A stretch of 64,000 nucleotides of DNA from contig JAJPKM010000014.1 in the NCBI GenBank assembly GCA_021323735.1, forward strand, positions 32,173 through 96,172, in the 5' to 3' direction. A program made the translations under genes and the position numbers. Source of the stretch: Gammaproteobacteria bacterium. GTDB taxonomy: Bacteria > Pseudomonadota > Gammaproteobacteria > Steroidobacterales > Steroidobacteraceae. The notes under the pieces were generated by a model, which saw only the letters and a list, made by a program, of their open reading frames with translations, was not told the origin of the DNA and did not search any database. The stretch's first letter is position 1. Each line of letters begins with the position of its first letter. Below are positions 314-54,349 of the stretch, in pieces.

Positions 314-1462
314 ATGAGCGACGAGGACACGATGAGCGATGCGGATGAAATGCCGCCGGCGGCCCACGAGCATGTGTTCTTGGGCGTAGGTCATGATAAA
401 AACGAGCGCAAGACCTGGGCAGTCATCGCGCTCTGCAGCGTCATGATGCTGGTGGAGATCTTGGGCGGCAGCCTATTTGGATCCCTGGCGTTGGTGGCCG
501 ATGGTTTGCACATGTCGACCCATGCGAGTGCGATGCTGATCGCGGCGCTCGCCTACTCCTACGCACGAAAGCATGCCAGGGACCGTCGATTCGTGTTCGG
601 CACGGGCAAGCTGGGCGATCTCGCGGGATTCACCAGCGCCATCATCCTCGCGATGATCGCGATGCTGATCGGCTACGAGGCCGTGACGCGTTTCCTCGCG
701 CCGGTGCCCATTCATTTCGGCGAGGCCATTCCCATTGCCGTGGTCGGCTTGGCAGTCAACATCGCCAGCGCGTGGCTGCTGAGCGGCGACGATCACCACC
801 ATGGGCACGGTCACGGACATGCCCACCAGCACGATCACTCTCATGATCACGATCACTCTCATGATCACGATCACTCTCATGATCACGATCACTCTCATGA
901 TCACGATCACTCTCATGATCACGATCACGACCACCCTCACGAACACCCGCATTCTCACCAACACGCGCATGGCGAGGAATCGAGTCCGATCGCCGCTGCC
1001 TCAGCGTCGGACCAAGACGGCATCGATGCACGCGACCACAACATGCGCGCGGCCTATGTGCACGTCATAGCCGACGCGGCGGTCTCGGTCTTGGCCATCA
1101 TCGGATTGACGCTTGCCAAGCTCTTCGGCTGGCTGTGGATGGATCCGCTCGCAGGCATGGTAGGTGCTCTGGTCATCGCCAATTGGTCCTATGGATTGAT
1201 TCGCGATACCGGGGCAATTCTTCTCGACATTTGTCCCAGCGACACCATTGAGAAGAAGATCCGGACGGCCATCGTCGCCGCCGGTGATCGTTTGCTGGAC
1301 TTGCATGTGTGGCGCCTGGGACCCGGGCACTTCGGGGCGGTCATTTCGGTCGTCAGTGCAGTGGCGCAACGCGGGCCCGCGTTCTATCATCGGGCGCTCC
1401 GGGGATTCAAAGGCCTATCGCACCTCACCGTCGAGGTTCATCGCCAACCCGACGCGAGATGA
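314..1462 (+). CDS. Cation diffusion facilitator (CzcD/ZitB-type) divalent metal efflux transporter with an expanded His-rich cytoplasmic loop
   Basis: 382 aa; hydrophobic TM helices before and after a loop 'HHHGHGHGHAHQHDHSHDHDHSHDHDH...HPHEHPHSHQHAHG'; CDF-like C-terminal cytoplasmic domain. Confidence 0.85.
   Translation: MSDEDTMSDADEMPPAAHEHVFLGVGHDKNERKTWAVIALCSVMMLVEILGGSLFGSLALVADGLHMSTHASAMLIAALAYSYARKHARDRRFVFGTGKLGDLAGFTSAIILAMIAMLIGYEAVTRFLAPVPIHFGEAIPIAVVGLAVNIASAWLLSGDDHHHGHGHGHAHQHDHSHDHDHSHDHDHSHDHDHSHDHDHSHDHDHDHPHEHPHSHQHAHGEESSPIAAASASDQDGIDARDHNMRAAYVHVIADAAVSVLAIIGLTLAKLFGWLWMDPLAGMVGALVIANWSYGLIRDTGAILLDICPSDTIEKKIRTAIVAAGDRLLDLHVWRLGPGHFGAVISVVSAVAQRGPAFYHRALRGFKGLSHLTVEVHRQPDAR
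830..928 (+). repeat. In-frame 18-bp tandem repeat (cacgatcactctcatgat, 5 perfect copies plus a partial one) encoding (HDHSHD)n inside the CDF gene
   Basis: Direct reading of the sequence at 830-919 gives identical 18-mers, then a degenerate copy. Confidence 0.9.
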
Positions 1463-5546: not shown

Positions 5547-6179
5547 TCAGATCGATTCCAGATAGGCGACCACAGCTTGTATCTGATCCTTGGTCAGGTC
5601 CTTGACGATGCCGTGCATCACGGGGGCGTTTCTCAGGGCGCTCTGAATGACGAGAATCTGTTTCAGAAGATAGGGCGCGTGTTGGCCCGCAAGACGGGGA
5701 AAGACGACCTGGCCTGCGCCGCTCTTACCGTGGCAGCTCGCGCAGGGGGGAATTTGCCGCGCTGGGACACCCTCCTCGAAGAGCCGCTTCCCTTGAGCGA
5801 TCAGCGCAGGATCGCCCGCCTTGCCGGTGGGCGCCGCCTGCGCCGCGTAGTAGGCCGCTATGCCTGAGATGGTGGAGTCGCTGAGCTGCGAGGCCATGCC
5901 CCACATGTATGCCTGCGCATCCGGATCCCCACGTGACTGGTCTTTGAAGGCGTGCAGTTGCGCTTCGATGTATGGCGCGGTCTGCGCCGCGAGATTGGGG
6001 AATGTTGGCGCGACGCTGTTGCCGTTGGTACCGTGGCAGGTCGTGCAGGTGTCGATGGTCTTGCGCAGCGCCGCCTTCTGCGCCGCCGTCATGCCCTCGA
6101 TGGTCTCATCCGCCGCATATGCCGCCTGACCCAATCCGACAGCGGCGCTCAATACCAACAGGACGAAGTGAAGTTTCAT
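5547..6179 (-). CDS. Periplasmic dihaem cytochrome c4 (Cyc1-like)
   Basis: Signal peptide 'MKLHFVLLVLSAAVGLGQAAYA'; two CxxCH haem sites ('CTTCHG' and 'CASCHG') with downstream Met ligand regions; about 210 aa, typical c4 size. Confidence 0.8.
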   Translation of the reverse strand: MKLHFVLLVLSAAVGLGQAAYAADETIEGMTAAQKAALRKTIDTCTTCHGTNGNSVAPTFPNLAAQTAPYIEAQLHAFKDQSRGDPDAQAYMWGMASQLSDSTISGIAAYYAAQAAPTGKAGDPALIAQGKRLFEEGVPARQIPPCASCHGKSGAGQVVFPRLAGQHAPYLLKQILVIQSALRNAPVMHGIVKDLTKDQIQAVVAYLESI

Positions 6180-6215
6180 GGTGTTACCTCGCGAGCCGAT
6201 TTGCGTCATCCCCAT

Positions 6216-7609
6216 CTAAAAGTTCAGCCATGTCAGAAGATATGTCGTGTTGTTGGCTGAGGCGTCTCGGCCGGAGCCGTCGTAGTTGATCTTGCCGCCG
6301 TTGAACTTCGTGTACCCCGTGTACTGGAGCTGGAGCTTCGTATTGAGCCAGGGCAAGTAATTCACCTCGAGGATGTATCCGCCGGTGTTGGGGCTGGAAT
6401 TTGCGCTGCCCGTCGCGGCGGCCGCCACATACAACAGCGGATCGCTGCTGCCTCGAGTGCTGAAATAGCCGATCGAGCCTCCGATCTTGCGCTGGTAGTA
6501 GTACTCGCCGGTGAGCTTCAGCGTCTTCAAGTTGTTGTCGATGTTTGCGGCAAGACCGTCTTGCACGCTCGCATCCAGCGTCTGGCGCTCATCGATATAG
6601 GTCGCCAGTGCCGTGAACAGATGATCTTCACCGATGAACTGATACTGCACATCCAGCGCCGCGTCCCGATACTTGTCGGTGGGCCCCGATAGCGGCTTAC
6701 CGTTGCCCGGCAACGCACGCGCCGTGAGTCCGTAAGCTCCCACCTCTAGGGAATTCCTGTCCCAACGCTGCTCGTAGGCCACGCGCCAGTAGGGGGCAAG
6801 AGCGTGCACCACATTCGCCTGCGAGCTGTCGAGCGGATGCGCGCCGCCCGTGATCGCGGACGTGTAGTCGGTCAGCTCGGCATAGAAGTGCTCATCGAGC
6901 CAGGCGTAGACGCCGAGCCCTGCCACGCTTTGTCCGAAGCCCCCGGCGCCGTTATCGATCTTCGCCGAGGTTATCGGACCCGGCGCGGTGTTGCTGGCGG
7001 AGTAAGGGAACCCCCACGCGGGCGTGGTGTTCCAAGGATCCTGAACGGTCGGATTGTTGTTGAGCGTGAGCCCGAGGATCAGGTTGTGATCGTTCCCGTT
7101 TACCCCGCCGAACGACCAGTGATGTACGTAGCGGATATCGGTGTTGTCGAATCCGAAATGATCCGCGGCGCCGTCATAGGTGATCTGCATGAAGGCGCCC
7201 AGGCCCTCCGCGATCTTCCCGGCGTAGAACAAGCTTACCTGCTGCGGAAAGAGCAGGTCGCCGTCCTTGGCGAGCGCGCCGCTGATGGCGCTGTCGGGCA
7301 GCGCCTTGTTCGTGCGGGTATAGGAGACCTGGAGCATCACGCTCAATGGGGGAATGGAATTGAGCGCGAGGGTCTGATTCGCCGCGGTATCGATTCCGGT
7401 CACCTGCTTCATGTTGTCCAGCACGTAGCCGTTGAGCTTGAACTCGCGCCCGAACGGAGTGAGCTCGGGGAACACGGTGTGGCAGGCGGCACAGGCCATA
7501 CCGGTCTGCCGCGCGAAGCTCGGAACCGCCTGGCTGGGAGCGACGGTTCCAATATAGAGTGCGGCGGCCAGAAACCAGGTCGGAATCGCAAACGTCCGTA
7601 AGCTCATGT
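6216..7609 (-). CDS. cyc2: Cyc2-like fused monohaem cytochrome-porin (candidate outer-membrane Fe(II) oxidase)
   Basis: Signal peptide, a single CxxCH ('CAACH') immediately after the signal, then about 430 aa of beta-barrel-like sequence ending in a C-terminal aromatic '...TWLNF'. It sits immediately upstream of the dihaem c4 gene on the same strand, as in cyc2-cyc1 of acidophilic iron oxidisers. Confidence 0.6.
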
Positions 7610-7801
7610 TCTCATCTCCCTCGAAACTGAAATCCTGTCGGCGTTGTCTTCGAATCGCAAAGTACCTGCGTTCGCACACAGCGTCTGTACGTAGAACCGC
7701 TTAGTGAATTGCGTTACTGGTGGGTTGCGTCACCGGCGGATGGCGACAAAGGTGACCATCGTCACAGCCGAGACGTTGCGCGGACGCGGAGTCTTAGGCA
7801 A

Positions 7802-8671
7802 CTACTCCGAACTCAAGGGAAGACGGAACCAAAATCGGCAGCCCTCGCCGCTCAAGTTTTCGTAGCCGATACTTCCTTCATGTGCTTCGACGATCGAGCG
7901 ACTGGAGGCCAGACCCAGCCCAGTACCATGCGTCTTGGTCGTGTAGAACGGCCTGAACAGACGATGCTGAGCCTCTTCCGAGACCCCAGGGCCCGAATCG
8001 ACGATGCTGGTTTCCACACCATAGCGATCGGGCGCCACGCCAACGCGCACATGAGGTGCGTGTCCTTGTTTGGCGGACTCGAACCCGTTTTGCACCATCG
8101 AAAAAATCACATGCTGAATCTTGACCCGGTCGACGCTGAGGACGGGGCACGGCGCGAGCGAGAGCTCGAGGGTTCCATTGTGCCGTGCGGACAGTAGTTC
8201 AAGCGCGGGTCGAAGTTCCAAGATCAACTCGTCGACCGCGCAGCGCGTTCGCGCAGAATCGTCCTGATCGAACATCCGCCGTAACCGGCGAATACCCTCG
8301 CCGGCGTTGAGAGCCTCTTGATTGATTTGCTTCAGCACCTCCAGCGCCTGCGGGATCATCGGCTGCGGCCGGTCGAGCATACGCATGCCTGCCTGCGCGA
8401 ATGTCGCGATCGCTCCCAGCGGCTGATTGAGCTCATGGGCCATGCCGCTCGCCATCTCGCCGAGCGCAGTGCGGCGAGCGATTTCGATCACCTGATTCAA
8501 TAGGGCTGCGGTTCCGCCGGATTCGGAGTCTTGATGGCTCAAAGGGATCACCTCCCCGACACAATGGCAGGAACCAGACTGTGCCACACCCTGTACATGC
8601 CGCGCATCCGTCAGGGGAAGTGCGTATGACTTGGTCGACGCCCTGATCACCGCCACCTCGGTATCCGACAT
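7802..8671 (-). CDS. Cytoplasmic sensor histidine kinase (HisKA + HATPase_c) with a short Cys-containing N-terminal segment
   Basis: H-box 'HELNQPLGAI'; N, G1 and G2 boxes ('DSGPGVSEEAQHRLFRPFYTTK', 'GLGL'); no TM segments; N-terminus 'SGSCHCVGE'. Confidence 0.8.
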   Translation of the reverse strand: MSDTEVAVIRASTKSYALPLTDARHVQGVAQSGSCHCVGEVIPLSHQDSESGGTAALLNQVIEIARRTALGEMASGMAHELNQPLGAIATFAQAGMRMLDRPQPMIPQALEVLKQINQEALNAGEGIRRLRRMFDQDDSARTRCAVDELILELRPALELLSARHNGTLELSLAPCPVLSVDRVKIQHVIFSMVQNGFESAKQGHAPHVRVGVAPDRYGVETSIVDSGPGVSEEAQHRLFRPFYTTKTHGTGLGLASSRSIVEAHEGSIGYENLSGEGCRFWFRLPLSSE

Positions 8672-8793: not shown

Positions 8794-9426
8794 ATGGAAA
8801 AGATCAATGAAAAAATCGCTTCGCCGACTGTCTACGTCGTCGATGACGACGACGGTATGCGCCGTGCGCTCGACACGCTCCTGAGCACGGTGGGCTACAA
8901 GACCTCGGTGTTTTCCCGTCCGCGCGACTTCCTCGCCCAGTACGGCGCCGACGCCCCCGGCTGCCTGGTGCTGGACATTCGTATGCCCGAAATGAGCGGT
9001 CTCGAGGTGCAGCAGCACCTGAACCGCATGGGATCTATGCTCCCCATCGTCTTCATCACGGGCCATGGCGATGTGCCGATGGCCGTTCAAGCCATGAAAG
9101 AAGGCGCTTTTGAGTTCATCCAAAAGCCGTTCAGAGACCAGGATCTTTTGGATCGCATCAATCAGGCTTTGAGGCAAGATGCGGAGAATCGAGCCGGTGC
9201 CGCGCGGCGTTCGGAGGTACTACAACGGCTCGAGTCGCTGACGCCCCGGGAACGCCAGGTGATGGACTTCATCGTCGAAGGCAGCGCCAACAAAGTGATT
9301 GCGATCGACCTGGGTTTGAGCGAGCGCACTGTCGAGATTCATCGAGCCAAGGTCATGGAAAAGATGGGCGCACGATCGGTGGCGCACCTGGTCAGGCTTC
9401 ACTTGACGTTGAACGACGCGTCCTGA
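8794..9426 (+). CDS. FixJ/NarL-family response regulator (REC + LuxR-type HTH)
   Basis: 'VYVVDDDDGMRRAL...LVLDIRMPEMSGLEV' receiver domain; C-terminal 'LTPRERQVMDFIVEGSANKVIAIDLGLSERTVEIHRAKVMEKMG'. Confidence 0.9.
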   Translation: MEKINEKIASPTVYVVDDDDGMRRALDTLLSTVGYKTSVFSRPRDFLAQYGADAPGCLVLDIRMPEMSGLEVQQHLNRMGSMLPIVFITGHGDVPMAVQAMKEGAFEFIQKPFRDQDLLDRINQALRQDAENRAGAARRSEVLQRLESLTPRERQVMDFIVEGSANKVIAIDLGLSERTVEIHRAKVMEKMGARSVAHLVRLHLTLNDAS

Positions 9427-9530: not shown

Positions 9531-10001
9531 TCAGCCGGCCAGCAGCGCGCGCAGCAGCGACAATAGTTTCTCGGCGTTGATGGGCTTGCTCGTGATCCTG
9601 AAGTGCGGATCGCTCGGCAATTGCTTGATGGCCTCCGAGGTATCTCCCGTCGTGAGCAGCGCGCGCAGCGGCACACCCAGCACTTCGCGCAAGGTCGCGA
9701 TCACCTGAGTCCCCGTCTCTCCGTCCGCCAGGTGATAATCGGTGATTAGCAAGTCCACCTGGTTTCCCTTCTGAACGTGCGCGACGGCCTCCGTGAGGGT
9801 GCCGATCGGCGTCACGTGATAACCCTCGATCTCCAGCAACGAGCACATGGCGCGGCGTACCGAAAGATTGTCCTCGACCAGAAGAACTCGAGCCCCTCCC
9901 AAGCGGCTTACATCGGTCACGTCAGGGATATTTCCATTCGCCCAGGGGCCTGGCGGCTTATTGTATGCAATGTCGCTGGGTATGGGGTTTGTTTGTCGCA
10001 T
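9531..10001 (-). CDS. Single-domain CheY-like response regulator receiver protein
   Basis: 'ARVLLVEDNLSVRRAM...DLLITDYHLADGETG...SKPINAEKL'. Start taken at the internal Met 'MRQTNPIP'. Confidence 0.75.
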   Translation of the reverse strand: MRQTNPIPSDIAYNKPPGPWANGNIPDVTDVSRLGGARVLLVEDNLSVRRAMCSLLEIEGYHVTPIGTLTEAVAHVQKGNQVDLLITDYHLADGETGTQVIATLREVLGVPLRALLTTGDTSEAIKQLPSDPHFRITSKPINAEKLLSLLRALLAG

Positions 10002-10250
10002 CGCACAAGAAATAAGGGAATCGGCGCAATGGATTGCGGCAATTCCTGATTGGCTCCCGCCAAGGACAGGGCACAATGGCCGGGCAAACTCTTCGAAAGG
10101 TGAGGACGCAAAGCTTCCGGTCTAAGGGCTCTTGCCTATGACAGCGGGGTTGCCGGGGCCGCAAGGCCTTGTTGTGCGGGTCAACGGCCTGCCAAAAAGC
10201 GACCCCTGTGTATTGGCTCCCAAGAATCGGATTCTCAATAGGGAGCGGTT

Positions 10251-10748
10251 ATGTCAGACATTCTTTGCAAACAGACGCGTGCACCGGAAACTCACTCCGG
10301 ACTGCAATACGTGGTGGAGCTGCGCGTTTCGCCGACTCCCATCGATCCTTACAGCGTGCCGCTGCTCGATATCTTTGACGCATATCGTCTTTACAGCGAG
10401 ATCGGCCGCGATAACGGCCAGGTGCGCCACGCACTTTATCTCGGATATTTCAAGGAGCGCGCCACCGCCGCCTCCGTCGCCGGCTACCTGGCAGCGTATT
10501 TTGATGCGCCCCGTGTGGTACAGACGGTGCCGTCACGCTCGCTGCATCTCAAATTCGTACCTCTCAAAGATATCGGTGCGACCGGGACACACTCGGTGAT
10601 CGAGTTGACGGGTGAGCGACCCATGCCAACGCCACTACCCGCCCGAGTTCGCTTGCCCGCGCAGGATCGTGTGCCGGCCATGGCGGCATCCAATCGCAAG
10701 GCCGCGGCACCCTCGCTGCTGGCACGCATTCTCTATATGCACCGATGA
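10251..10748 (+). CDS. Hypothetical protein
   Basis: Unoverlapped 165-aa ORF in an intergenic-looking gap; no recognisable motif. Confidence 0.3.
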   Translation: MSDILCKQTRAPETHSGLQYVVELRVSPTPIDPYSVPLLDIFDAYRLYSEIGRDNGQVRHALYLGYFKERATAASVAGYLAAYFDAPRVVQTVPSRSLHLKFVPLKDIGATGTHSVIELTGERPMPTPLPARVRLPAQDRVPAMAASNRKAAAPSLLARILYMHR

Positions 10749-24706: not shown

Positions 24707-27463
24707 ATGCATCTGATTCTGCCCGTCATCGGCATACTCGTTGCAATGCTACTCGGTGATTCCGCCAATCGCAGCTTCGATCTGGTCGTGGGCGCATTCG
24801 TTGGATTTCTCGTCGCCGATCTTGGCGTTCTTCGCGCGGAACTTAAAGCGTTGCGCAACACGCTCGCGCAACTCACCGTTGAAATGAGGCGCCGCACGGC
24901 CACATCGAGCACCGCCACGGCTGCCCCGGAACCTGCTTCTAGGCCGGATACTCCGGCGGAAATCGATGAGACGGAGGTGCCGGCCGATTCGATAGCCATT
25001 GACCCGGCCAATCTGCCTTGGCGGGAATTCGAGCATTCGCCCAGAGTGAATTCGCCTTCGGCGAATCTGCCTCCGCTGCAATCGCCACCGACGGAATCGC
25101 GGCTGGCGACCGAGGCGCCACCGACCAGGAGCCCGCCTCCCGACTCGCCCCTTGTGGCCGCGATTCGCAACTTCTTCACCGGTGGCAATACTCTGGTACG
25201 CGTCGGCGTGATCGTATTGTTCTTTGGTGTGGCGTTCCTGCTGCGTTACATGGCAGAACACACCCATATTCCCATCGAAGTGCGCCTCACCGGCATTGCG
25301 CTCGCCGCAATCGCACTCATCATCGTCGGTTGGCGGCTGCGCGCCCGCCGCACCGGCTATGCGCTCAGCTTGCAAGGCGGAGGCGTCGGAATTCTGTATT
25401 TGATCGTGTTCGCCGCCTTACGCCTCTACAAGATTCTCCCCGCAGAAATTGCATTTCCTCTGCTGGTCGCGATTGCCGCGCTCTCCGCACTGTTGGCCGT
25501 TGTGCAAGAATCGATGTGGTTCGCCCTGCTCGCGGTGACCGGTGGATTCCTAGCCCCTATTCTCGCCTCCACCGGGGAAGGCAGCCATGTGGTCTTGTTC
25601 AGTTATTACCTGGTGCTGAACTTCGGCATACTCGCAGTGGCTTGGTTCAAGGCCTGGCGGCCGCTCAATGTGGCAGGCTTCGCATTTACGTTCGCAATCG
25701 GAACCGCCTGGGGAGTCCTTAATTATCGGCCGGCGGATTTTGCCACCACCGAGCCCTTCTTGATCCTCTTCTTCTTGTTCTATTTGGCCATTTCAATTCT
25801 TTTCACTCTCCGCCAGCCCGTGAAACTCACCGGCTATGTCGATTCGACGCTCATATTCGGCACGCCCATCATCGCCTTCTCGCTGCAGTCGGCCATGCTG
25901 CACGATCGTCTCATGCCATTGGCTTATAGCGCGGTCGCCCTCAGCGCGCTGTATCTCATCGCCGCCTGGGCTTTGCAGCAGCGCCGCTCGGACACTCAAA
26001 AGCTACTTATAGAATCATTCATTGCGCTGGCCATTGCCTTTCTGACCCTGGCCGTGCCCCTGGCCCTGGATGCCCGATGGAATGCGGCGACCTGGGCGCT
26101 CGAGGGAACCGCCCTCATCTGGGTCGGCTGTCGCCAGAACCGCCTGTTGCCGCGCGTGTTCGGAACTCTGTTGAATTTGGTGGCCGCCGGCATCGTCCTG
26201 CAGACGTTCGACCGCACAGACGCCGTTCTTTCGTACGGCGCCTATTTCGGCATTGTGGTACAAAGCGCCGCGGCGCTGTTCTCGGCGCGTACGCTCAACG
26301 CCAACCGCGAGAAGCTGGCGGACTTGGAATCCCACGTTGCCGACCTCCTCTACTGCGTGGGTGTTGGCCTGTGGCTGGCCGGGACTTCTAGCGAGATCCA
26401 TCTTCACCTCGTCTCGATCAAGGTGGCAGCCACTCTCCTCTTGGTTAGTCTCACAACGGTTGTGTCGGCTGTAGTTTTCAAGCGCGCCGAGCTTCAGTCC
26501 GCTCGATTCATTGCGCTGCTGCAATTGCCGGCAATGCTGTTATTCGCAGCCGTTGCAACTGTCATGGACAGTCATCCTTTCGCCAATGGCGGCTGGTGGG
26601 CGTGGCCGCTCGCCTTTGCAGCTCTCTATTCAGTGATGTACCGCTTGGAAGGCCCAAGTCGTGCCACCCTTGCCAATGCACTGAATGCCACCGCGTCCTG
26701 GCTGATCTGCGCTTTGTTGAGTTGGGAGATCGCCTGGCAGGTGAACACAGGGTTGACACCGAGCGATACCTGGCGCGCGGCGGTCTGGGTTATTGTCCCG
26801 GCCGCGCACCTGTGGTGGCTGCCGCGTCTCGTAACCCGTGTGCAATGGCCATTTGCCAAGAACCGCGAAGCCTATCTTTTCATCGCCGGCATCGGCATGA
26901 CGGCATATCTTGCCGCATGGAGCTTGATCACGAACCTTACCTGCACCGGCGACACTGCGCCATTGCCGTATCTGCCGGTACTGAACGCGCTCGATATCGC
27001 TCAGGCCTCGGTGCTCCTCAATTTGGTGCGCTATTGGCGATTCTTGAAGTCGGTGAACTCTCCCGGATTTGCGCGCATGGACAAGAGACTGCCCCCGGCG
27101 ACCCTCGTGGCGCTGACCTTCGTTTTTCTGAACGCGATTCTGCTGCGATCCTTGCATCAATGGTTCGGCGTCGGCTTGCGACTCGATCAACTCATGGCCT
27201 CCACATTGGTGCAGACTTCGATTTCGCTCTTTTGGACTGTGCTTGCGCTGCTAACCATGTTGTTTGCCACGCGCAAAGGCAGCCGTATGATCTGGGTGCT
27301 CGGCGCCACGCTGCTGGGCGTCGTCATTGCAAAACTGTTCTTGATCGATCTCTCCCGCAGCGGATCGGTCGAACGTATCATCTCGTTCGTAGGCGTCGGG
27401 CTACTGATGCTGATTGTGGGTTACTTGTCGCCTCTGCCACCCGCAAGGAAGTCACCATCATGA
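24707..27463 (+). CDS. Large polytopic membrane protein, DUF2339-like
   Basis: 918 aa; N-terminal TM, Pro/Ser-rich linker, then more than 20 predicted TM helices. Confidence 0.6.
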   Translation: MHLILPVIGILVAMLLGDSANRSFDLVVGAFVGFLVADLGVLRAELKALRNTLAQLTVEMRRRTATSSTATAAPEPASRPDTPAEIDETEVPADSIAIDPANLPWREFEHSPRVNSPSANLPPLQSPPTESRLATEAPPTRSPPPDSPLVAAIRNFFTGGNTLVRVGVIVLFFGVAFLLRYMAEHTHIPIEVRLTGIALAAIALIIVGWRLRARRTGYALSLQGGGVGILYLIVFAALRLYKILPAEIAFPLLVAIAALSALLAVVQESMWFALLAVTGGFLAPILASTGEGSHVVLFSYYLVLNFGILAVAWFKAWRPLNVAGFAFTFAIGTAWGVLNYRPADFATTEPFLILFFLFYLAISILFTLRQPVKLTGYVDSTLIFGTPIIAFSLQSAMLHDRLMPLAYSAVALSALYLIAAWALQQRRSDTQKLLIESFIALAIAFLTLAVPLALDARWNAATWALEGTALIWVGCRQNRLLPRVFGTLLNLVAAGIVLQTFDRTDAVLSYGAYFGIVVQSAAALFSARTLNANREKLADLESHVADLLYCVGVGLWLAGTSSEIHLHLVSIKVAATLLLVSLTTVVSAVVFKRAELQSARFIALLQLPAMLLFAAVATVMDSHPFANGGWWAWPLAFAALYSVMYRLEGPSRATLANALNATASWLICALLSWEIAWQVNTGLTPSDTWRAAVWVIVPAAHLWWLPRLVTRVQWPFAKNREAYLFIAGIGMTAYLAAWSLITNLTCTGDTAPLPYLPVLNALDIAQASVLLNLVRYWRFLKSVNSPGFARMDKRLPPATLVALTFVFLNAILLRSLHQWFGVGLRLDQLMASTLVQTSISLFWTVLALLTMLFATRKGSRMIWVLGATLLGVVIAKLFLIDLSRSGSVERIISFVGVGLLMLIVGYLSPLPPARKSPS

Positions 27464-28794
27464 ATCGAGCGCTCGGGGTCGCATTCATCCTGCTTTGGAA
27501 TTTGAGCGCAGCGAAGGCGGCATCCGAATCGCCACAAGATTTCGCCTATGGTCAGCCCGTGATCACAATGGAAGCCGCCGCGGCTTACCGCGTGACCCTA
27601 CCGCTCGCCATCTACCAAAGTATCTTGAGTGCCAATTTGTCGGACTTGCGCGTATTCAACGACGCCGGGGCGGTCGTCCCTTATTCGCTGTCTCGTCCGG
27701 CTGAGCAAGCGCGGCCTAAAACACCCGCCGTGTCGCTGCCGTTATTCCCCCTTCACGGCTCCCCGGTTCTTATCAACGGCGTGCAAGTCACGATCAATTC
27801 CACAGGATCCGCGGTTAGCCTGCAGACTCAAAATGGCAGCGGCCAGCTAAGCAACGGCACGCGGCAGTATCTGCTGGACGCGCATGACTCTGATACCGCC
27901 TATTCCGCGCTGCAACTGACGTGGCCGGATACGGCAACGGATTTCACCGGTCGCTTGAGCATCGAAGTCAGTGATGATCTGGCGGCGTGGCGCGCAGTCA
28001 TTGCCGCCGCGCCGATCGCGAATCTTCACGCCAATGGCCAGTCGCTGATCGAGAACCGCATCAGCCTCCCGCCCACAAAAGCCAAATTCTGGCGCTTGAC
28101 CTGGCTCGGAGCCGCACCCAGTTTTGAATTGAGCACGGTGCTCGCCGAGCCGGCATCCAACCCCATCGAACAGCGGTACGACTCTCTCGACCTTACCGGG
28201 CTCCGAGAGAAGGATTCGCAGGATTATATGTTTGACTCGAGCGCCCACCTCCCGGTGACGCGTCTGAATATTCTACTTAGCGACGTGAATACCCTCGCCA
28301 ACGTCGAGTTGTCTTCTCGCTCCGACATCGATAAGCCCTGGCACCCGGTCACGCGCGCGCTGGTATACCGGCTGAAGACGACGGAATCCGAACAACACAA
28401 CGCCCCAATTGAGGTGGCCACGGATACCGATCGCTTCTGGCGCGTGCACATCGTCGGCACCGGCATCCCCCCGCAAGCGCCCCTCACTCTCCATGTCGAG
28501 TGGGTACCCCACGAACTGACATTTCTGGCCCAAGGTCACGAGCCCTTTCTAGTCGCCTATGGCAGCGCCGCTGCAGGCCGCGTCGAGGCCGACTTCAGCC
28601 ATCTGCCCACCAATTTGCAAATGGCAGCCGCCACGTTAGGCCCGCCAGAGAGCCTGGGAGGAATCGCTCGCCTCACTGCCCCACGCGCCCCCTTTCCACG
28701 CACGCGCGCCATCCTCTGGGCAATCCTGCTCCTCTCGGTCGTGATTCTCGGGTGGATGGCTTTTCGTGTAGCGAAAGAACACGGTCCCATATAA
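27460..28794 (+). CDS. DUF3999-like secreted/membrane-anchored protein (partner of DUF2339)
   Basis: Starts with ATGA overlap with the upstream gene; signal peptide 'MNRALGVAFILLWNLSAAKA'; C-terminal TM 'AILWAILLLSVVILGWMAF'. The listed ORF's N-terminal extension from 26596 is antisense read-through. Confidence 0.55.
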   Translation: MNRALGVAFILLWNLSAAKAASESPQDFAYGQPVITMEAAAAYRVTLPLAIYQSILSANLSDLRVFNDAGAVVPYSLSRPAEQARPKTPAVSLPLFPLHGSPVLINGVQVTINSTGSAVSLQTQNGSGQLSNGTRQYLLDAHDSDTAYSALQLTWPDTATDFTGRLSIEVSDDLAAWRAVIAAAPIANLHANGQSLIENRISLPPTKAKFWRLTWLGAAPSFELSTVLAEPASNPIEQRYDSLDLTGLREKDSQDYMFDSSAHLPVTRLNILLSDVNTLANVELSSRSDIDKPWHPVTRALVYRLKTTESEQHNAPIEVATDTDRFWRVHIVGTGIPPQAPLTLHVEWVPHELTFLAQGHEPFLVAYGSAAAGRVEADFSHLPTNLQMAAATLGPPESLGGIARLTAPRAPFPRTRAILWAILLLSVVILGWMAFRVAKEHGPI

Positions 28795-29143
28795 TCGCGC
28801 AACGCGAAGCCCGAAAAGTCAGGCGAATCGTAAAGCCGAGCTTGAAATACGTCCGGGCTCACGCCAAACGCCTTGCAAGGGTGAGCGCGAATGCATTCTC
28901 GACGCGACTCAATTTGCACCAGTTTCGTCGTGACGCGAGAGCTTAAGCTTTCACAGGCGTTGACGACGGACCACCTCTTCTCGCGAACGGGGTTCGATGC
29001 CTTGTTGCTGTCTGCTTTGCAATAAGTTCGTCACGATTCGCTGAGCTATCCTAGGCGCGCATTTTCCGCCCCCGGGACCACCTCCTTGGGCGATAATGGC
29101 CTCTTGCGAACCAAATCGTTTTGCGAAATTACAGGTCTCGTTC

Positions 29144-30604
29144 ATGACCCCGGGTCGAAATGATCCTTGCCTCTGCGGCAGCGGCAAGAAGTACAAACAC
29201 TGTTGTTTGCGCGCGGCGGCCAACTCCGCCGATTCCCCGGTGGAGATCTCTTGGCGGCGGGTGCGGCGGGCGCTGGACGAATTCGCCATGGCGAGCTTGA
29301 TGCTCCCTTTTGTGGCTGAAGCGTACGGTCCCAATGCGCTTGAAGAGGCATGGGAAGAATTCTCCGGCGCTCAAGAACCTTTTGATCCCGAGACCCCGCA
29401 CATCCAGGTCTTTATGCCGTGGTTCTTTCATCGCTGGTCGCCCGATCCGTACGGCACCGAGGTTACGGACACCGCGCTTCACCAGCGCAGTCCGACCAAG
29501 CTTTTTCTGGAACGCAGAGGTGTACGGCTTGACCCCGTGATACGACGGTACCTTGAGTCTTGCCTGGAGGCCCCTTTTAGTTTCCACGAGATTTTGCGCT
29601 GCGATCCGGGCCACGGGTTTCAGGCCCGGGATCTTTTCACCGGCGAGGAACGGGCGGTGCTGGAACGGATGGCAACCCAGGGAATGCAACGCGGCGATAT
29701 CGTATTCGGCCAACTGGTCACGGCGGAGGGCATCACCATACTCGAGGCCGCCTCCTTTTGCTTTATCCCGCCGATCTACAAGATCGAGCTTATCGATTTT
29801 CGCAAGAAATTGCTGCGTGGCGAGCCCCGTTTCACTGCTGCAACCCTGTGTGAATGGGACCTCGAACTCGTTGAGCGTTACTTGGACATCATGGACAAGG
29901 TGCTGCATCCGCAGCTTCCGAAGCTTCACAACACCGATGGCGAGCCGCTGGAGATGCACCGCCTCGTGTTCGATATCGATTCACCCGAGAAAGTATTCCA
30001 AGCACTGAAGTCGCTCGATTTAGGCCGCTCCGAGGAGGAGCTACTCGCCGCCACGAAGCGTACGGCACGCGGCGAGTTCAAAAGCGTGCAATTCAACTGG
30101 TCGATGGCAGGCAATCAAATGCACGAGAACTGGTCCACCACGATCCTCGGTCACCTCGAGATCAAGGGACGGCGCATGCTGGCCGAAGTCAATTCCTCGC
30201 GTCGGGCGCATGAATTCAAGACCCTGGTCCAGGAGCGCCTGGGAAGTGAGGCACGGCTTCGCGCTGACCGCATCCAGTCAGTCGAGAAAATGTTGGCCGA
30301 GCGCAACGGCGCGGGGCTGCAGGATTCCGTCCGAGAGGCAGAATCCAGCGCGCTCGCGGAACACCCTGAGGTGCAGGCCCGCGTGCAACAGATGATGGCT
30401 GAGCACTTCGAGCGCTGGGTAACCGAGAAGATTCCAGCGCTCAACGGGCAAACGCCGCTCGAGGCAGTTCGCCATCCAGACGGCCGCGAGAAAGTCATGG
30501 CGCTCGTCATTGAGGCAGAGCGCAGTGCGCGCCGCATGAAACCCCCTGTGGATCCAGTTACCCTGCGCCGGGTCCGAGAACGGCTAGGGCTCACAGACGA
30601 TTGA
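29144..30604 (+). CDS. SEC-C metal-binding-motif protein
   Basis: 'MTPGRNDPCLCGSGKKYKHCC' is a SecA C-terminal-type zinc motif at the N-terminus; remainder unknown. Confidence 0.6.
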   Translation: MTPGRNDPCLCGSGKKYKHCCLRAAANSADSPVEISWRRVRRALDEFAMASLMLPFVAEAYGPNALEEAWEEFSGAQEPFDPETPHIQVFMPWFFHRWSPDPYGTEVTDTALHQRSPTKLFLERRGVRLDPVIRRYLESCLEAPFSFHEILRCDPGHGFQARDLFTGEERAVLERMATQGMQRGDIVFGQLVTAEGITILEAASFCFIPPIYKIELIDFRKKLLRGEPRFTAATLCEWDLELVERYLDIMDKVLHPQLPKLHNTDGEPLEMHRLVFDIDSPEKVFQALKSLDLGRSEEELLAATKRTARGEFKSVQFNWSMAGNQMHENWSTTILGHLEIKGRRMLAEVNSSRRAHEFKTLVQERLGSEARLRADRIQSVEKMLAERNGAGLQDSVREAESSALAEHPEVQARVQQMMAEHFERWVTEKIPALNGQTPLEAVRHPDGREKVMALVIEAERSARRMKPPVDPVTLRRVRERLGLTDD

Positions 30605-30758: not shown

Positions 30759-31853
30759 CTACTCGTCTGCCACGTCCCTGGTGAGGAGGCGAAGGAAAGC
30801 CGGATTCACGAACAATTTGGTCCTTCCAAACTGAGCGCTTGACAGTACTTTTGCCTGAGCGAGCTTGTTCAGATAAACGGAGGCCGTTTGTCTCTTGGCG
30901 ATGCCTGCGTTGGTCAGATTCTCAATGCGAGTGTACGGCTGCACAAAGATCGATTCGATCAGCTCCTTGGAATATATTTTCGGCAGCCTCTTCTTCACCG
31001 TAGCGGCAGTTCGTTCGGCCAGCTCTCGAATAGCCTGAATTTTCTCAACCGTCCATTTGGCGGTATCGGCAGTCGCGCGTAGCATATATAGAATCCACTC
31101 TTCCCACGCCTCCTCCTTGGTGACTCGCAGCAACAGATCGTAGTACGTCCGCTTGTTTCGAATGATGTACCGCGAGAGATACAGCACGGGGCTGTCGAGC
31201 AGCCCGTACTGAACCAAAATTAACAGGTTCAGGATTCTGCCGGTTCGACCGTTTCCGTCCGTGAAGGGATGGATGGCCTCGAACTGGTAGTGTGCAATCG
31301 CCATCCTCACCAATGGGTCCAAATCGCTCGGAAGGTTGACGAACCGCTCCCAGTTTGCAAGTTTGTCGCGGAGGAGGCTTTCGCCCACTGGCGGGGTATA
31401 GATGATGGCGCCGGTGCCTTCGTGGGCAAGGGCAGTACCTGGCACCCGCCGAACAGTCATTCTCACGTCCTTGATGATCGTGCAGATCTCCTCGGCAATT
31501 CGAGTATTTAGTGGCGTCTTGTCGATTGCTACGCAGCCATGGCGCAATGCTGTTCGGTACCGGAGCGCCTCTTTCGTTTGCGGATCTGCGCTATTCTCCT
31601 GAAGTTGAGCCTGACGAAAGAGTGCATCAGTCGTCGTGACGACATTCTCGATTGCCGAGCTCGCCTGAGCCTCAAGCAGCGGAATGGTATTGATCAAGAC
31701 CGTGGGATTCGGAATGAGCGCCGTCGCTTGCTTCAGACTGGCCAACGCCGCACGAGCCTCCACGCATGCTTTTAGCACCGGCTTATTCTCTAAGTCCCCT
31801 TTTGGAGGCAATAGAGGTAAGGCAACAAAGGGCGTATTCGGGTTAAATGGCAT
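30759..31853 (-). CDS. Fic/Doc-family protein (AMPylation-type) with a C-terminal wHTH-like region
   Basis: Canonical Fic motif 'HPFTDGNGRTGR'. AT-rich upstream region at 31860-31930. Confidence 0.85.
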   Translation of the reverse strand: MPFNPNTPFVALPLLPPKGDLENKPVLKACVEARAALASLKQATALIPNPTVLINTIPLLEAQASSAIENVVTTTDALFRQAQLQENSADPQTKEALRYRTALRHGCVAIDKTPLNTRIAEEICTIIKDVRMTVRRVPGTALAHEGTGAIIYTPPVGESLLRDKLANWERFVNLPSDLDPLVRMAIAHYQFEAIHPFTDGNGRTGRILNLLILVQYGLLDSPVLYLSRYIIRNKRTYYDLLLRVTKEEAWEEWILYMLRATADTAKWTVEKIQAIRELAERTAATVKKRLPKIYSKELIESIFVQPYTRIENLTNAGIAKRQTASVYLNKLAQAKVLSSAQFGRTKLFVNPAFLRLLTRDVADE

Positions 31854-54037: not shown

Positions 54038-54349
54038 ACCGATTCATTCCTTCACTTTGTTACGAGGGTTGAGCCCTCGGGCACCGTGTGCGCGGCATCG
54101 GCGCTTTCCGCCCATGCTTGGCAGCGCAAAGTTTTCCATTTCGGCGGGCTCAAACAACTACCTCAGACCTAGCATAAGCTCAGCGTAGTCTGGAGTCGAC
54201 TGCCGATCATCGAGCGCAAATGTCTTCGCTCGAATACTCATGGGCGGCATCCATTCATTTCGAGGTTTTTGCAGTGGAAAGGAGTGTTCCATTGCCGCTC
54301 GGGGGCATGCGATCGTCGAATCCGGATATCCACTGTTGCAACCGCCCCC

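What the first reader, a model, noticed from the sequence alone, without database searches (positions are those of the whole stretch)
5547..7679. Cyc2-like fused cytochrome-porin followed by a dihaem cytochrome c4: candidate extracellular Fe(II)-oxidation module
The upstream gene has a single CxxCH immediately after its signal peptide, followed by a long beta-barrel-like region ending in a terminal Phe, which is the hallmark architecture of Cyc2 iron oxidases. The next gene, same strand and abutting, is a periplasmic dihaem c4 (Cyc1-like). This matches the cyc2-cyc1 order of the Acidithiobacillus rus operon. A Cys-containing soluble HK / FixJ pair and a GGDEF-EAL gene flank the module.
Basis: partly seen in the sequence, partly recalled or inferred. 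Interest (0 to 1): 0.6.

Follow-up and report, generated by a model that had tools for sequence, protein, structure and literature searches.

The report
Cyc2 iron-oxidase homologue with c4 partner
This soil-metagenome contig carries a true homologue of the outer-membrane iron oxidase Cyc2 followed by its usual two-haem periplasmic partner; the gene pair is already known and very common in soil bacteria, and its role in iron oxidation here is plausible but untested.

Summary

The pair is conserved in 75 of 80 species-level genomes, mostly soil MAGs of Steroidobacteraceae, Burkholderiales and Stellaceae. It evolves as a unit (r = 0.93).

No rusticyanin, cupredoxin or oxidase lies in the window, so this is a stand-alone cyc2-cyc1 pair, not a rus operon.

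Context points to low-oxygen control. A FixJ-type regulator with a sensor-less kinase is adjacent. An exact FixJ SELEX motif lies 87 nt upstream of cyc2. FNR/FixK boxes precede cyc2 in 17 related loci, and HiPIP, HemN and Usp genes recur nearby.

This is a new member of a known kind. Fe(II) oxidation is the most likely function but is not shown.

The parts
6216..7607 (-). cyc2-like gene: fused monohaem cytochrome-porin, 463 aa plus stop
   Evidence: ORF. Start at ATG 7607 supported by the RBS, homologue lengths and the JGI gene call. 33% identity and E 6e-68 to A. ferrooxidans Cyc2 over the full length. hhalign probability 100%.
7527..7607 (-). signal peptide (residues 1-27, cleavage SQA|VP)
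   Evidence: Read from the sequence. Hydrophobic helix 7-21 in the model. No SignalP was run.
7503..7529 (-). AVPSFARQT: the Cyc2-specific AXPXFAR[Q/K][T/Y] motif (residues 27-35)
   Evidence: Motif definition from Keffer 2021. Conserved across the 91-sequence family alignment. Also present in AfCyc2 as LPSFARQT.
7479..7493 (-). CAACH haem c attachment site (residues 39-43), the only one in the protein
   Evidence: C39, C42 and H43 are invariant in 91 sequences. AfCyc2 has the same CAACH.
7461..7469 (-). PEL: the PXL motif, with Pro as the 4th residue after the CXXCH
   Evidence: P47 nearly invariant, L49 invariant.
6219..7346 (-). porin barrel, residues about 88-463, 16 long strands, ending in Phe463
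5547..6179 (-). cyc1-like dihaem cytochrome c4, 210 aa (ORF extends to ATG 6215)
   Evidence: Pfam PF00034 x2 and PF13442. Best PDB relative 1h1o, E 9.6e-37, 39.8% identity over 171 residues. Start and RBS. Directly downstream of cyc2 in 75 of 80 related genomes.
6033..6047 (-). CTTCH, haem site of c4 domain 1
5730..5744 (-). CASCH, haem site of c4 domain 2
7608..7801 (-). 194-nt intergenic region upstream of cyc2; presumed promoter and regulatory region
   Evidence: No sigma-70 consensus match. No FNR/FixK box.
7687..7694 (+). GTACGTAG: exact match to the FixJ SELEX consensus GTAMGTAG, 87 nt upstream of the cyc2 ATG; candidate FixJ-type binding site
   Evidence: the only exact match among 79 upstream regions, with a control rate of 0.002 per region. 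Matches with <=1 mismatch occur in 26 of 79 loci against 14% of controls. Consensus taken from PMC4999443. Inference only.
7802..8671 (-). sensor-less histidine kinase (HisKA + HATPase only), similar to the FixL C-terminal half
   Evidence: Orthologues are about 250 aa with no sensor domain. Found near cyc2 together with a FixJ-type gene in about 8 of 80 loci.
8794..9426 (+). FixJ-type response regulator (REC + GerE/LuxR HTH), divergent from the kinase
   Evidence: NCBIfam FixJ model NF006900: 250 bits against a cut-off of 255. Pfam hits. FixJ homologues lie near cyc2 in about 10 of 80 loci.
9531..9920 (-). stand-alone receiver-domain protein (129 aa by the JGI call)
   Evidence: Resembles the REC domain of the PAS-HK-REC hybrid kinases found near cyc2 in 8 related loci.

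Best explanation
The two genes form a stand-alone cyc2-cyc1 operon. It encodes an electron conduit from outside the cell into the periplasm.

Shown here: the first product is a member of the Cyc2 family, namely a Sec-exported outer-membrane 16-strand porin whose N-terminal 40-60 residues form a tiny one-haem cytochrome domain. The second product is a periplasmic dihaem cytochrome c4 of the Cyc1 type.

Inferred by homology to A. ferrooxidans Cyc2 and Mariprofundus Cyc2PV-1: dissolved Fe2+ reaches the haem at the barrel and is oxidised. The electron passes to the c4, with HiPIP as an extra carrier in some relatives. From there it goes to a cytochrome c oxidase encoded elsewhere in the genome, most plausibly a high-affinity cbb3 type.

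Inferred from context: expression is switched on under oxygen limitation. In this contig the switch would be the adjacent FixJ-type regulator with its sensor-less kinase. In betaproteobacterial and Stellaceae relatives it would be an FNR/FixK-type regulator. Low oxygen is the condition under which Fe(II) persists at near-neutral pH. The host is probably a facultative, largely organotrophic soil gammaproteobacterium near the Steroidobacteraceae, which would use Fe(II) as a supplementary electron donor.
For: Family identity:
- The Cyc2-specific motif AXPXFAR[Q/K][T/Y], a single CXXCH, PXL, and length >=365 aa are all present (definitions; sequence).
- Full-length BLASTP to A. ferrooxidans Cyc2: 33% identity, E 6e-68 (reference sequence). 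Profile comparison: probability 100%, E 7e-81.
- A 54%-identical relative (L041, Rubrivivax) is the same protein that appears in a published AfCyc2 homologue alignment.

Partner:
- The c4's best solved relative is AfCyc1 (1h1o), E 9.6e-37.
- c4 lies immediately downstream in 75 of 80 genomes. Its divergence tracks that of cyc2, r = 0.93.

Direction of electron flow:
- Recurrent neighbours are high-potential carriers. HiPIP occurs in 11 of 80 loci and on a Caballeronia plasmid.
- The same cyc2 + HiPIP + Cyc1 cluster was reported in a Bradyrhizobium from a pyrite-oxidising enrichment.

Low-oxygen control:
- FNR/FixK boxes lie at -60 to -110 in 17 of 79 upstream regions, against 0.017 expected per region.
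- The window has an adjacent FixJ-type regulator and kinase and an exact GTAMGTAG motif at -87.
- HemN and Usp genes lie near cyc2 in 8-9 loci.

A Steroidobacteraceae MAG carrying Cyc2 has already been flagged as a putative Fe(II) oxidiser.
Against: - No biochemical or expression data exist for this subfamily. Keffer 2021 warns that function is uncertain for homologues distant from the characterised proteins and in organisms not known to oxidise iron.
- No terminal oxidase, rusticyanin or cupredoxin, bc1 complex or carbon-fixation gene is in the 64 kb window, and none is conserved in the 80 neighbourhoods.
- Close relatives sit in plant pathogens (Ralstonia solanacearum) and in Acidiphilium cryptum. 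From my own knowledge, A. cryptum is an Fe(III) reducer.
- The window has no FNR box. The FixJ-motif evidence is post hoc, and the enrichment across loci is only about twofold.
- The kinase has no sensor domain, so the signal it responds to is unknown.
- No Met or His is conserved enough to serve as the sixth haem ligand, so the haem chemistry may differ from that of standard electron-transfer cytochromes.
Confidence: 0.6

Rival explanations
1. Same proteins, opposite or bidirectional electron flow. Under oxygen limitation the c4 donates electrons to the Cyc2-like haem, which reduces an extracellular or porin-accessible acceptor such as soluble or chelated Fe(III) or quinone/humic compounds. 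The pair would then be a small electron-export valve rather than an Fe(II) oxidase.
For: The conserved context belongs to a low-oxygen or anoxic regulon: FNR/FixK boxes, FixJ, HemN and Usp. In Acidiphilium cryptum JF-5 the plasmid copy sits beside genes annotated as an SCP2 sterol-binding protein and two U32 peptidases, one of them tagged with a ubiquinone-biosynthesis GO term. Their reading as O2-independent UbiT/U/V-type enzymes, and the status of A. cryptum as an Fe(III) reducer, rest on my own knowledge. Electron flow through the A. ferrooxidans rus-operon proteins is described as reversible.
Against: c4 cytochromes and HiPIPs are high-potential carriers that normally feed oxidases or reaction centres (established knowledge). 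At near-neutral soil pH they are poor reductants for Fe(III) minerals. All three biochemically tested Cyc2 proteins oxidise Fe(II). Low-oxygen induction fits microaerobic Fe(II) oxidation through a cbb3 oxidase equally well.
Confidence: 0.12
2. The pair oxidises Fe(II), or another small soluble reductant such as Mn(II), Cu(I) or reduced organics. The purpose would be protection or redox homeostasis during microoxic transitions, for example preventing periplasmic Fenton chemistry. It would not be an energy-conserving lithotrophic pathway.
For: The family is extremely widespread in organisms not known as iron oxidisers. It gave more than 7,900 clusters, mostly from soil MAGs, and it also occurs in Ralstonia, Caballeronia, Paraburkholderia and Methylocystis. 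The module is minimal and mobile: it sits on plasmids and next to transposases with no dedicated oxidase. Usp stress-protein genes recur as neighbours. A His-rich CDF metal-efflux gene lies 4 kb away in the window.
Against: Mechanistically this differs from the best explanation only in physiological pay-off. Electrons delivered to c4 would still reach an oxidase and contribute to proton-motive force. The barrel is strongly conserved (53% mean column identity among 16 members) and the pair co-evolves tightly with c4, which argues for a selected, specific electron-transfer function.
Confidence: 0.2
3. This is not a redox module. The upstream gene would be an ordinary porin with a fortuitous CxxCH, placed next to an unrelated housekeeping c4 cytochrome.
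For: No Pfam or NCBIfam model matches the protein. PDB sequence search finds nothing. Its fold neighbours are general porins.
Against: C39, C42 and H43 and the flanking motif are invariant or nearly so across 91 diverse homologues. The protein shows end-to-end homology to the haem-containing Fe(II) oxidase AfCyc2. c4 is adjacent in 75 of 80 genomes, with correlated divergence.
Confidence: 0.02

Closest known systems
Cyc2 of Acidithiobacillus ferrooxidans (UniProt B7JAQ7; Cluster 2 of the McAllister/Keffer Cyc2 tree)
   Same: Signal peptide, xPSFARQTG motif, identical CAACH haem site, PxL motif, three short helices followed by a 16-strand OprP-like barrel, similar length (463 vs 485 aa), and a terminal aromatic residue. 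33% identity end to end, E 6e-68. In both cases a dihaem c4 gene follows.
   Different: The host is a near-neutral soil bacterium, not an acidophile. The downstream rus-operon genes (cup, coxBACD, rus) are absent. The adjacent regulator is FixJ-type. From my own knowledge, the redox-sensing pair described for A. ferrooxidans is RegBA. Activity and potential have not been measured.
Cyc2PV-1 of Mariprofundus ferrooxydans and other Cluster 1 Cyc2 of neutrophilic iron oxidisers
   Same: Same fused cytochrome-porin architecture and defining motif. The proposed pathway is the same: Cyc2 to a periplasmic dihaem Cyc1 to a cbb3- or aa3-type oxidase at low O2.
   Different: Not compared directly, because no Cluster 1 sequence was available. 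AfCyc2 is only about 20% identical to Cluster 1 proteins, so the window protein is expected to be a distant relative. Cluster 1 hosts are obligate lithoautotrophs, whereas this family's hosts are mostly soil MAGs and heterotrophs.
Cyc1 / CYC41, the dihaem cytochrome c4 of A. ferrooxidans (PDB 1h1o)
   Same: Best solved relative of the window c4: E 9.6e-37 and 39.8% identity over 171 residues covering both haem domains. Same gene position directly after cyc2.
   Different: In A. ferrooxidans, rusticyanin is placed between Cyc2 and Cyc1. No cupredoxin is present here, so a direct Cyc2-to-c4 transfer would be needed.
cyc2-HiPIP-cyc1 clusters of soil and enrichment-culture Proteobacteria (Bradyrhizobium from pyrite enrichment, Rhodanobacter of culture KS, Steroidobacteraceae AMD MAG 28)
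   Same: A Cyc2 homologue clustered with a Cyc1-type cytochrome, and often HiPIP, in organisms outside the classical iron oxidisers. HiPIP is a neighbour in 11 of 80 relatives of this locus.
   Different: The window itself has no HiPIP gene. None of these clusters has been tested genetically or biochemically as far as the papers read here state.
MtoAB / PioAB porin-cytochrome complexes
   Same: Outer-membrane route for electron uptake from Fe(II).
   Different: Those systems use a separate decahaem cytochrome inside a 26-strand porin. Here there is one haem fused to a 16-strand porin.

Membership tests
Cyc2 fused cytochrome-porin (sensu McAllister 2020 / Keffer 2021) | N-terminal signal peptide | tested here: met
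   Residues 1-27 contain a hydrophobic core with an A-x-A-type site SQA|VP. Read from the sequence. Helix 7-21 in the model. No dedicated predictor was run.
Cyc2 fused cytochrome-porin (sensu McAllister 2020 / Keffer 2021) | Exactly one CXXCH haem-binding motif near the N-terminus | tested here: met
   CAACH at residues 39-43 is the only one. It is invariant in 91 homologues.
Cyc2 fused cytochrome-porin (sensu McAllister 2020 / Keffer 2021) | AXPXFAR[Q/K][T/Y] motif just upstream of CXXCH (stated to be unique to Cyc2) | tested here: met
   A27-V-P-S-F-A-R-Q-T35, with 3 residues before C39. AfCyc2 and the Ralstonia homologue have the same spacing. The paper says '5 amino acids upstream', and its counting convention is unclear.
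Cyc2 fused cytochrome-porin (sensu McAllister 2020 / Keffer 2021) | PXL motif 4 residues after CXXCH | tested here: met
   P47-E-L49.
Cyc2 fused cytochrome-porin (sensu McAllister 2020 / Keffer 2021) | Length of at least 365 aa | tested here: met
   463 aa.
Cyc2 fused cytochrome-porin (sensu McAllister 2020 / Keffer 2021) | 16-strand outer-membrane porin domain, structurally like OprO/OprP | tested here: met
Cyc2 fused cytochrome-porin (sensu McAllister 2020 / Keffer 2021) | Sequence homology to a biochemically characterised Cyc2 | tested here: met
   Against A. ferrooxidans Cyc2: 33% identity over 482 columns, E 6e-68. hhalign probability 100%, E 7.4e-81. The reference sequence was machine-read from a PDF and may contain a few errors.
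Cyc2 fused cytochrome-porin (sensu McAllister 2020 / Keffer 2021) | FeGenie Cyc2 HMM score above cut-off and placement in Cluster 1, 2 or 3 of the reference tree | not testable with these tools
   The HMMs and the figshare alignment are not available here. Cluster 2 is inferred from the closeness to AfCyc2.
Cyc2 fused cytochrome-porin (sensu McAllister 2020 / Keffer 2021) | Covalent haem incorporation and Fe(II)-oxidising activity | not testable with these tools
   Requires expression and biochemistry.
Cytochrome c4 (Cyc1 type) | Two class I cytochrome c domains, each with CXXCH, in a secreted protein of about 20 kDa | tested here: met
   PF00034 in two stretches. CTTCH and CASCH. Signal peptide MKLHF...AYA|A.
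Cytochrome c4 (Cyc1 type) | Homology to solved c4 structures across both domains | tested here: met
   1h1o at E 9.6e-37 (query residues 52-222, 222-aa ORF numbering), 6q2u at 7e-31, 1etp at 1.7e-28. Met in YMW and in xMxxI is conserved with 1h1o in the printed alignment.
rus operon of Acidithiobacillus / Acidiferrobacter / Acidihalobacter | cyc2-cyc1 as the first two genes | tested here: met
rus operon of Acidithiobacillus / Acidiferrobacter / Acidihalobacter | Followed by cup, coxBACD (aa3 oxidase) and rus (rusticyanin) | tested here: not met
   The gene after c4 is a CHASE3-GAF-GGDEF-EAL protein. No other CxxCH protein, cupredoxin or oxidase was found among the window ORFs scanned, and none is conserved in the 80 related loci.
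FixLJ oxygen-sensing two-component system | Kinase with a haem-binding PAS sensor domain | tested here: not met
   Only HisKA and HATPase_c are present. The match to FixL covers its C-terminal half only. Orthologues are about 250 aa with no sensor domain.
FixLJ oxygen-sensing two-component system | FixJ-type REC + LuxR/GerE regulator | tested here: inconclusive
   NCBIfam FixJ equivalog: 250.0 bits against a cut-off of 255. This is just below threshold, so I call it FixJ-type, not FixJ.
MtoAB/PioAB/MtrAB porin-cytochrome complex | Multihaem (decahaem) cytochrome plus a separate 26-strand porin | tested here: not met

The most novel reading that the evidence does not exclude
The cyc2-c4 pair of Steroidobacteraceae, Burkholderiales and Stellaceae may be a dedicated low-oxygen regulon member, controlled by FNR/FixK or FixJ. 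It would let very abundant, nominally organotrophic soil bacteria tap Fe(II), or exchange electrons with soluble iron or humic shuttles in either direction, whenever soils turn microoxic. If so, a large and so far uncounted share of soil iron redox cycling would run through heterotrophs rather than specialist iron oxidisers, and cyc2 counts in soil metagenomes would need to be read together with oxygen status.
Probability: 0.2. Interest if true: 0.6.

Novelty: new member of a known kind. Interest (0 to 1): 0.3.

Why it matters
Cyc2 is the main candidate marker gene for microbial Fe(II) oxidation, so it matters which organisms carry real homologues and in what context.

This locus shows that a soil gammaproteobacterium has a full-length Cyc2 closer to the characterised A. 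ferrooxidans enzyme (33% identity) than the Cyc2 proteins of several accepted iron oxidisers are reported to be (20-30%; the identity methods differ). It is paired with a Cyc1-type c4 but lacks the rest of the rus operon.

The comparison across 80 genomes adds two practical points. The two genes are the conserved unit. Their recurrent regulatory context is oxygen limitation.

This gives testable conditions (low O2 plus Fe(II)) and tractable cultured carriers (Ralstonia, Caballeronia, Paraburkholderia) for finally testing what Cluster-2-like Cyc2 proteins do in non-classical hosts. The finding itself is an expected member of a described family, not a new kind of system.

Tried and rejected
1. 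Pfam, NCBIfam and PDB sequence searches with the Cyc2-like protein returned nothing. No curated model for Cyc2 exists in those libraries, so the absence is uninformative.
2. The AlphaFold-database fold search (afdb50) was not available, so named UniProt Cyc2 models could not be retrieved.
3. The 91-sequence alignment was too diverse for the search for related loci. A 16-sequence alignment worked.
4. A literature search for the peptide strings FARQT/FARKY returned only German 'Infarkt' papers. The Keffer 2021 and McAllister 2020 supplements hold no sequences. The AfCyc2 sequence was finally found in the SI of Jiang et al..
5. I looked for an FNR/FixK box upstream of the window's cyc2. There is none. 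The box is a feature of the betaproteobacterial and Stellaceae relatives only.
6. No sigma-70 promoter consensus lies in the region, and no terminator on the gene's strand was found between c4 and the next gene.
7. Rfam found nothing inside the module. The c-di-GMP riboswitch at 10073-10157 is not conserved next to cyc2 in 8 close relatives, so I rejected it as part of the module.
8. The GGDEF-EAL gene, the CDF transporter and the other window genes have no counterpart near cyc2 in the 80 loci, so I rejected them as module parts.
9. The 'A. ferrooxidans' plasmid hit CP084173.1 gives the same identity, E-value and bit score as the Acidiphilium cryptum pACRY03 hit. I therefore did not use it as evidence for Acidithiobacillus.
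10. A search for the metagenome identifier in the literature found nothing, so I make no statement about the sample's habitat beyond the JGI record number.
Full report
WHAT IS THERE

The finding's interval holds two co-directional genes on the minus strand.

The upstream ORF runs from a GTG at 7679. Its likely start is the ATG at 7607. A GGGAG ribosome-binding site lies 8 nt before it. The closest homologue is also 463 aa with 100% coverage. JGI's own gene call on the source contig uses the same start.

The product reads MSLRTFAIPTWFLAAALYIGTVAPSQA|VPSFARQTGMACAACHTVFPELTPFGREFKLNGY... and ends ...TYLLTWLNF.

The second gene's ORF begins at an ATG (6215) that touches the cyc2 stop codon. The ATG at 6179 is the probable start. 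It has a GAGG site 7 nt upstream, it gives a clean signal peptide, and it is the JGI call. That leaves a 36-nt spacer.

In the whole 64 kb window these are the only credible c-type cytochrome genes.

THE UPSTREAM PROTEIN IS A CYC2

Pfam, NCBIfam and PDB sequence searches return nothing. The same is reported for A. ferrooxidans Cyc2 itself.

Keffer et al. 2021 define the family by five features:
- a signal peptide;
- one CXXCH;
- an AXPXFAR[Q/K][T/Y] motif just upstream, stated to be unique to Cyc2;
- a PXL motif whose Pro is the fourth residue after the CXXCH;
- a length of at least 365 aa with a 16-strand porin resembling OprO/OprP.

The window protein has A27-VPSFARQT35, C39-AACH43 and P47-EL49. 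In an alignment of 91 homologues down to 35% identity, Q34, C39, C42, H43 and L49 are invariant. A27, P29, R33, T35, G36 and P47 are nearly so.

An AlphaFold2 model built on that alignment is confident (pLDDT 92.4, pTM 0.88). It shows three short helices around the haem site. A short hairpin follows, and then 16 long strands run from residue 88 to the C-terminal Phe.

I recovered the A. ferrooxidans Cyc2 sequence (UniProt B7JAQ7) from the supplementary text of Jiang, Khare and Banta. BLASTP gives 33% identity over 482 columns, covering residues 13-463 against 17-483, at E 6e-68. The family profile aligns with it at hhalign probability 100%, E 7e-81. AfCyc2 has the same CAACH and the sequence LPSFARQTG.

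For comparison, AfCyc2 is reported to share only 18-30% identity with the Cyc2 proteins of other accepted iron oxidisers (identity methods differ).

One relative in my set, L041 (Rubrivivax sp., 54% identical to the window protein), is the very protein used as an AfCyc2 homologue in that paper's alignment. Plasmid-borne relatives include Ralstonia solanacearum (46%), Caballeronia (45%) and Acidiphilium cryptum (37%). These genera or groups are already noted in the Cyc2 literature.

THE DOWNSTREAM PROTEIN IS A CYC1-TYPE C4

It has two Pfam cytochrome c domains and two CxxCH sites.

Its best solved relative is 1h1o: E 9.6e-37 and 39.8% identity over 171 residues spanning both domains. Jiang et al. 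identify 1h1o as A. ferrooxidans Cyc1.

HOW CONSERVED IS THE ARRANGEMENT

The family is very large. There are more than 7,900 90%-identity clusters among the 8,000 candidates scored, and 3,555 50%-identity representatives at E<=0.001.

A scan of one genome per species returned at least 586 loci. I examined the best 80. They are nearly all MAGs of Steroidobacteraceae, unclassified Gammaproteobacteria, Burkholderiales and Stellaceae. One locus each is assigned to Acidobacteriota and Methylomirabilia.

A c4 homologue lies directly downstream in 75 of the 80. The identities of the two proteins to the window's copies are correlated, r = 0.93 over 76 loci. The pair is therefore inherited as a unit.

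Nothing else is conserved to that degree. After clustering all flanking ORFs, the next most frequent neighbours are:
- an unknown 180-aa protein, 16 loci;
- HiPIP, 11 loci;
- FixJ-type regulators, about 10 loci;
- tandem Usp proteins, 9 loci;
- sensor-less kinases, PAS-HK-REC hybrid kinases, GNAT acetyltransferases and HemN, 8 loci each.

A Caballeronia plasmid also has HiPIP just upstream of the pair.

No oxidase, cupredoxin or rusticyanin is conserved nearby, and none is in the window. This is therefore a stand-alone cyc2-cyc1 pair, not a rus operon. Such stand-alone pairs have been described even in Acidithiobacillus.

REGULATORY CONTEXT

An FNR/FixK-type box (TTGAT-N4-ATCAA, up to 2 mismatches) lies 60-110 nt upstream of the cyc2 start in 17 of 79 loci. 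About 0.017 would be expected per region in that sub-window. These are the betaproteobacterial and Stellaceae members.

The window and its closest relatives lack the box. Instead the window has, immediately upstream, a kinase with only HisKA and HATPase domains and a divergently transcribed FixJ-type regulator. The regulator scores 250 bits on the NCBIfam FixJ model, whose cut-off is 255.

The 194-nt region upstream of cyc2 contains GTACGTAG at 7687-7694. This is an exact match to one of the two FixJ SELEX consensus motifs, GTAMGTAG. It was the only exact match in 79 upstream regions. One-mismatch versions occur in 26 of 79 regions against 14% of control regions.

I treat this motif as a lead only. 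It was found post hoc, and FixJ sites have no agreed consensus.

Together with the HemN and Usp neighbours, the recurring theme is control by oxygen limitation. The kinase orthologues lack any sensor domain, so the actual input is unknown.

MOST LIKELY MECHANISM

Steps shown here:
- family membership of both proteins;
- their export signals;
- the barrel fold;
- the conserved gene pairing.

Steps inferred from the characterised homologues:
- Fe2+ reaches the single haem at the porin and is oxidised.
- The electron goes to the periplasmic c4, and HiPIP may also serve in some relatives.
- From there it goes to a cytochrome c oxidase encoded elsewhere.

Step inferred from context: the pair is expressed at low O2, where Fe(II) is stable and a high-affinity oxidase is in use.

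I put 0.6 on this reading.

The main alternatives keep the same proteins but change the physiology. One is electron export to Fe(III) or organic acceptors under O2 limitation (0.12). It is suggested by the anoxic-regulon context and by the reversibility noted for the A. ferrooxidans rus-operon electron-transfer proteins. My own knowledge that Acidiphilium cryptum reduces Fe(III) points the same way. The other is protective, non-lithotrophic oxidation of Fe(II) or other small reductants (0.2). The idea that this is a plain porin with a chance CxxCH is excluded.

One open point concerns the haem. No Met or second His is conserved enough to be the sixth haem ligand in this family. The best candidates are K57 (98%), Y61 (92%) and M91 (71%).

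COMPARISON WITH WHAT IS KNOWN, AND NOVELTY

The protein meets every testable defining feature of the Cyc2 family. By its closeness to AfCyc2 it most probably belongs to Cluster 2. Cluster placement could not be tested because the FeGenie HMMs and the reference tree are not available here.

Several related observations are already published:
- Cyc2 homologues in Steroidobacteraceae;
- Cyc2 homologues in Rhodanobacter and Bradyrhizobium, the latter clustered with HiPIP and Cyc1;
- Cyc2 homologues in Burkholderiales, Ralstonia and Acidiphilium.

The locus is therefore a new member of a known kind. The modest additions from this work are three. The pairing is quantified across 80 species. The enrichment of FNR/FixK boxes and the FixJ-type link are documented. 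The pair is shown to lack the rest of the rus operon.

Interest is 0.3. A specialist would not be surprised by the gene pair. The low-oxygen regulon angle and the sheer abundance of this subfamily in soil data do make the question 'what does Cyc2 do in heterotrophs?' more directly testable.

SOURCE

The exact protein is on JGI metagenome 3300005537, contig Ga0070730_10000126, 95.8 kb. The closest species-level genome is an uncultured gammaproteobacterial MAG at 86% identity (L001).

Noticed in passing
window 10073-10157 (+): A c-di-GMP-I riboswitch (RF01051, 74 bits against a gathering score of 35, E 2e-13) lies about 95 nt upstream of an unannotated 165-aa ORF (10251-10748, no Pfam hit). It sits between the receiver-domain gene and that ORF. 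A CHASE3-GAF-GGDEF-EAL gene lies on the other side of the cyc2 pair. It is not found near cyc2 in 8 close relatives.
   Followed up: partly
L022-L041, L050, L059, L069 (upstream of the cyc2 homologue, -60 to -110 from the start codon): FNR/FixK-type boxes (TTGAT-N4-ATCAA, 0-2 mismatches) lie at a fixed distance upstream of cyc2 in 17 of 79 related loci, mainly Burkholderiales and Stellaceae. About 0.017 per region would be expected by chance. I did not see this regulatory link mentioned in the Cyc2 papers read here.
   Followed up: partly
11 of loci L001-L080 (e.g. L054 6951-7325), and L081 4933-5244: A HiPIP gene with a Tat-type signal (PF01355, E 5e-22) recurs next to the cyc2-c4 pair, including on a Caballeronia plasmid. 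None is present in the window.
   Followed up: partly
window 6216-7607 (-), residues 57, 61, 91: Across 91 family members, no Met or second His is conserved enough to serve as the distal haem ligand. The best candidates are K57 (98%), Y61 (92%) and M91 (71%). The haem may have unusual ligation.
   Followed up: partly
window 7802-8671 (-): The kinase next to cyc2 has no sensor domain. Cys144 (RTRCAVDEL) is conserved in the 6 closest sequences (the window plus L001, L002, L003, L009 and L031) but not in three more distant ones. It could be a redox-active Cys.
   Followed up: partly
window 314-1462 (+): A cation-diffusion-facilitator efflux protein (PF01545) carries a very long His/Asp-rich loop (HGHGHGHAHQHDHSHDHDHSHDHD... 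about 60 residues). It lies 4 kb from the cyc2 pair.
   Followed up: no
window about 29000-55500: A low-GC stretch (0.53-0.58, against about 0.60 elsewhere) carries accessory genes. These include a Fic/SoFic adenylyltransferase (30759-31853), a SEC-C/Xre-MbcA-ParS antitoxin-like protein (29096-30604) and a DNA methylase (47297-48451). Also present are a nucleotidyltransferase-DUF1488 protein (51671-53005) and a phage-type integrase (54269-55477). This is probably an integrated mobile element.
   Followed up: no
window 38866-41691 (-): A 941-aa protein combines an OmpR-type Trans_reg_C DNA-binding domain, a Ser/Thr protein kinase domain and TPR repeats. This is an uncommon one-component architecture.
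   Followed up: no
window 24707-28794 (+): Adjacent DUF2339 (918 aa, E 1e-174) and DUF3999 (E 5e-97) genes. Their ORFs as listed overlap by about 870 nt, so one of the two start codons is mis-set.
   Followed up: no
L082 (Acidiphilium cryptum JF-5 plasmid pACRY03) 2675-5234; plasmid record CP084173.1: The Acidiphilium cyc2 homologue sits on a conjugative plasmid next to a transposase. Nearby are an SCP2-domain gene and two U32-peptidase genes; from my own knowledge these resemble O2-independent ubiquinone synthesis genes (UbiT/U/V). Its cytochrome motif reads FAAQT instead of FARQT. A hit with the same identity, E-value and score occurs in a record labelled as an A. ferrooxidans plasmid, which may be a mis-assigned Acidiphilium plasmid.
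   Followed up: no
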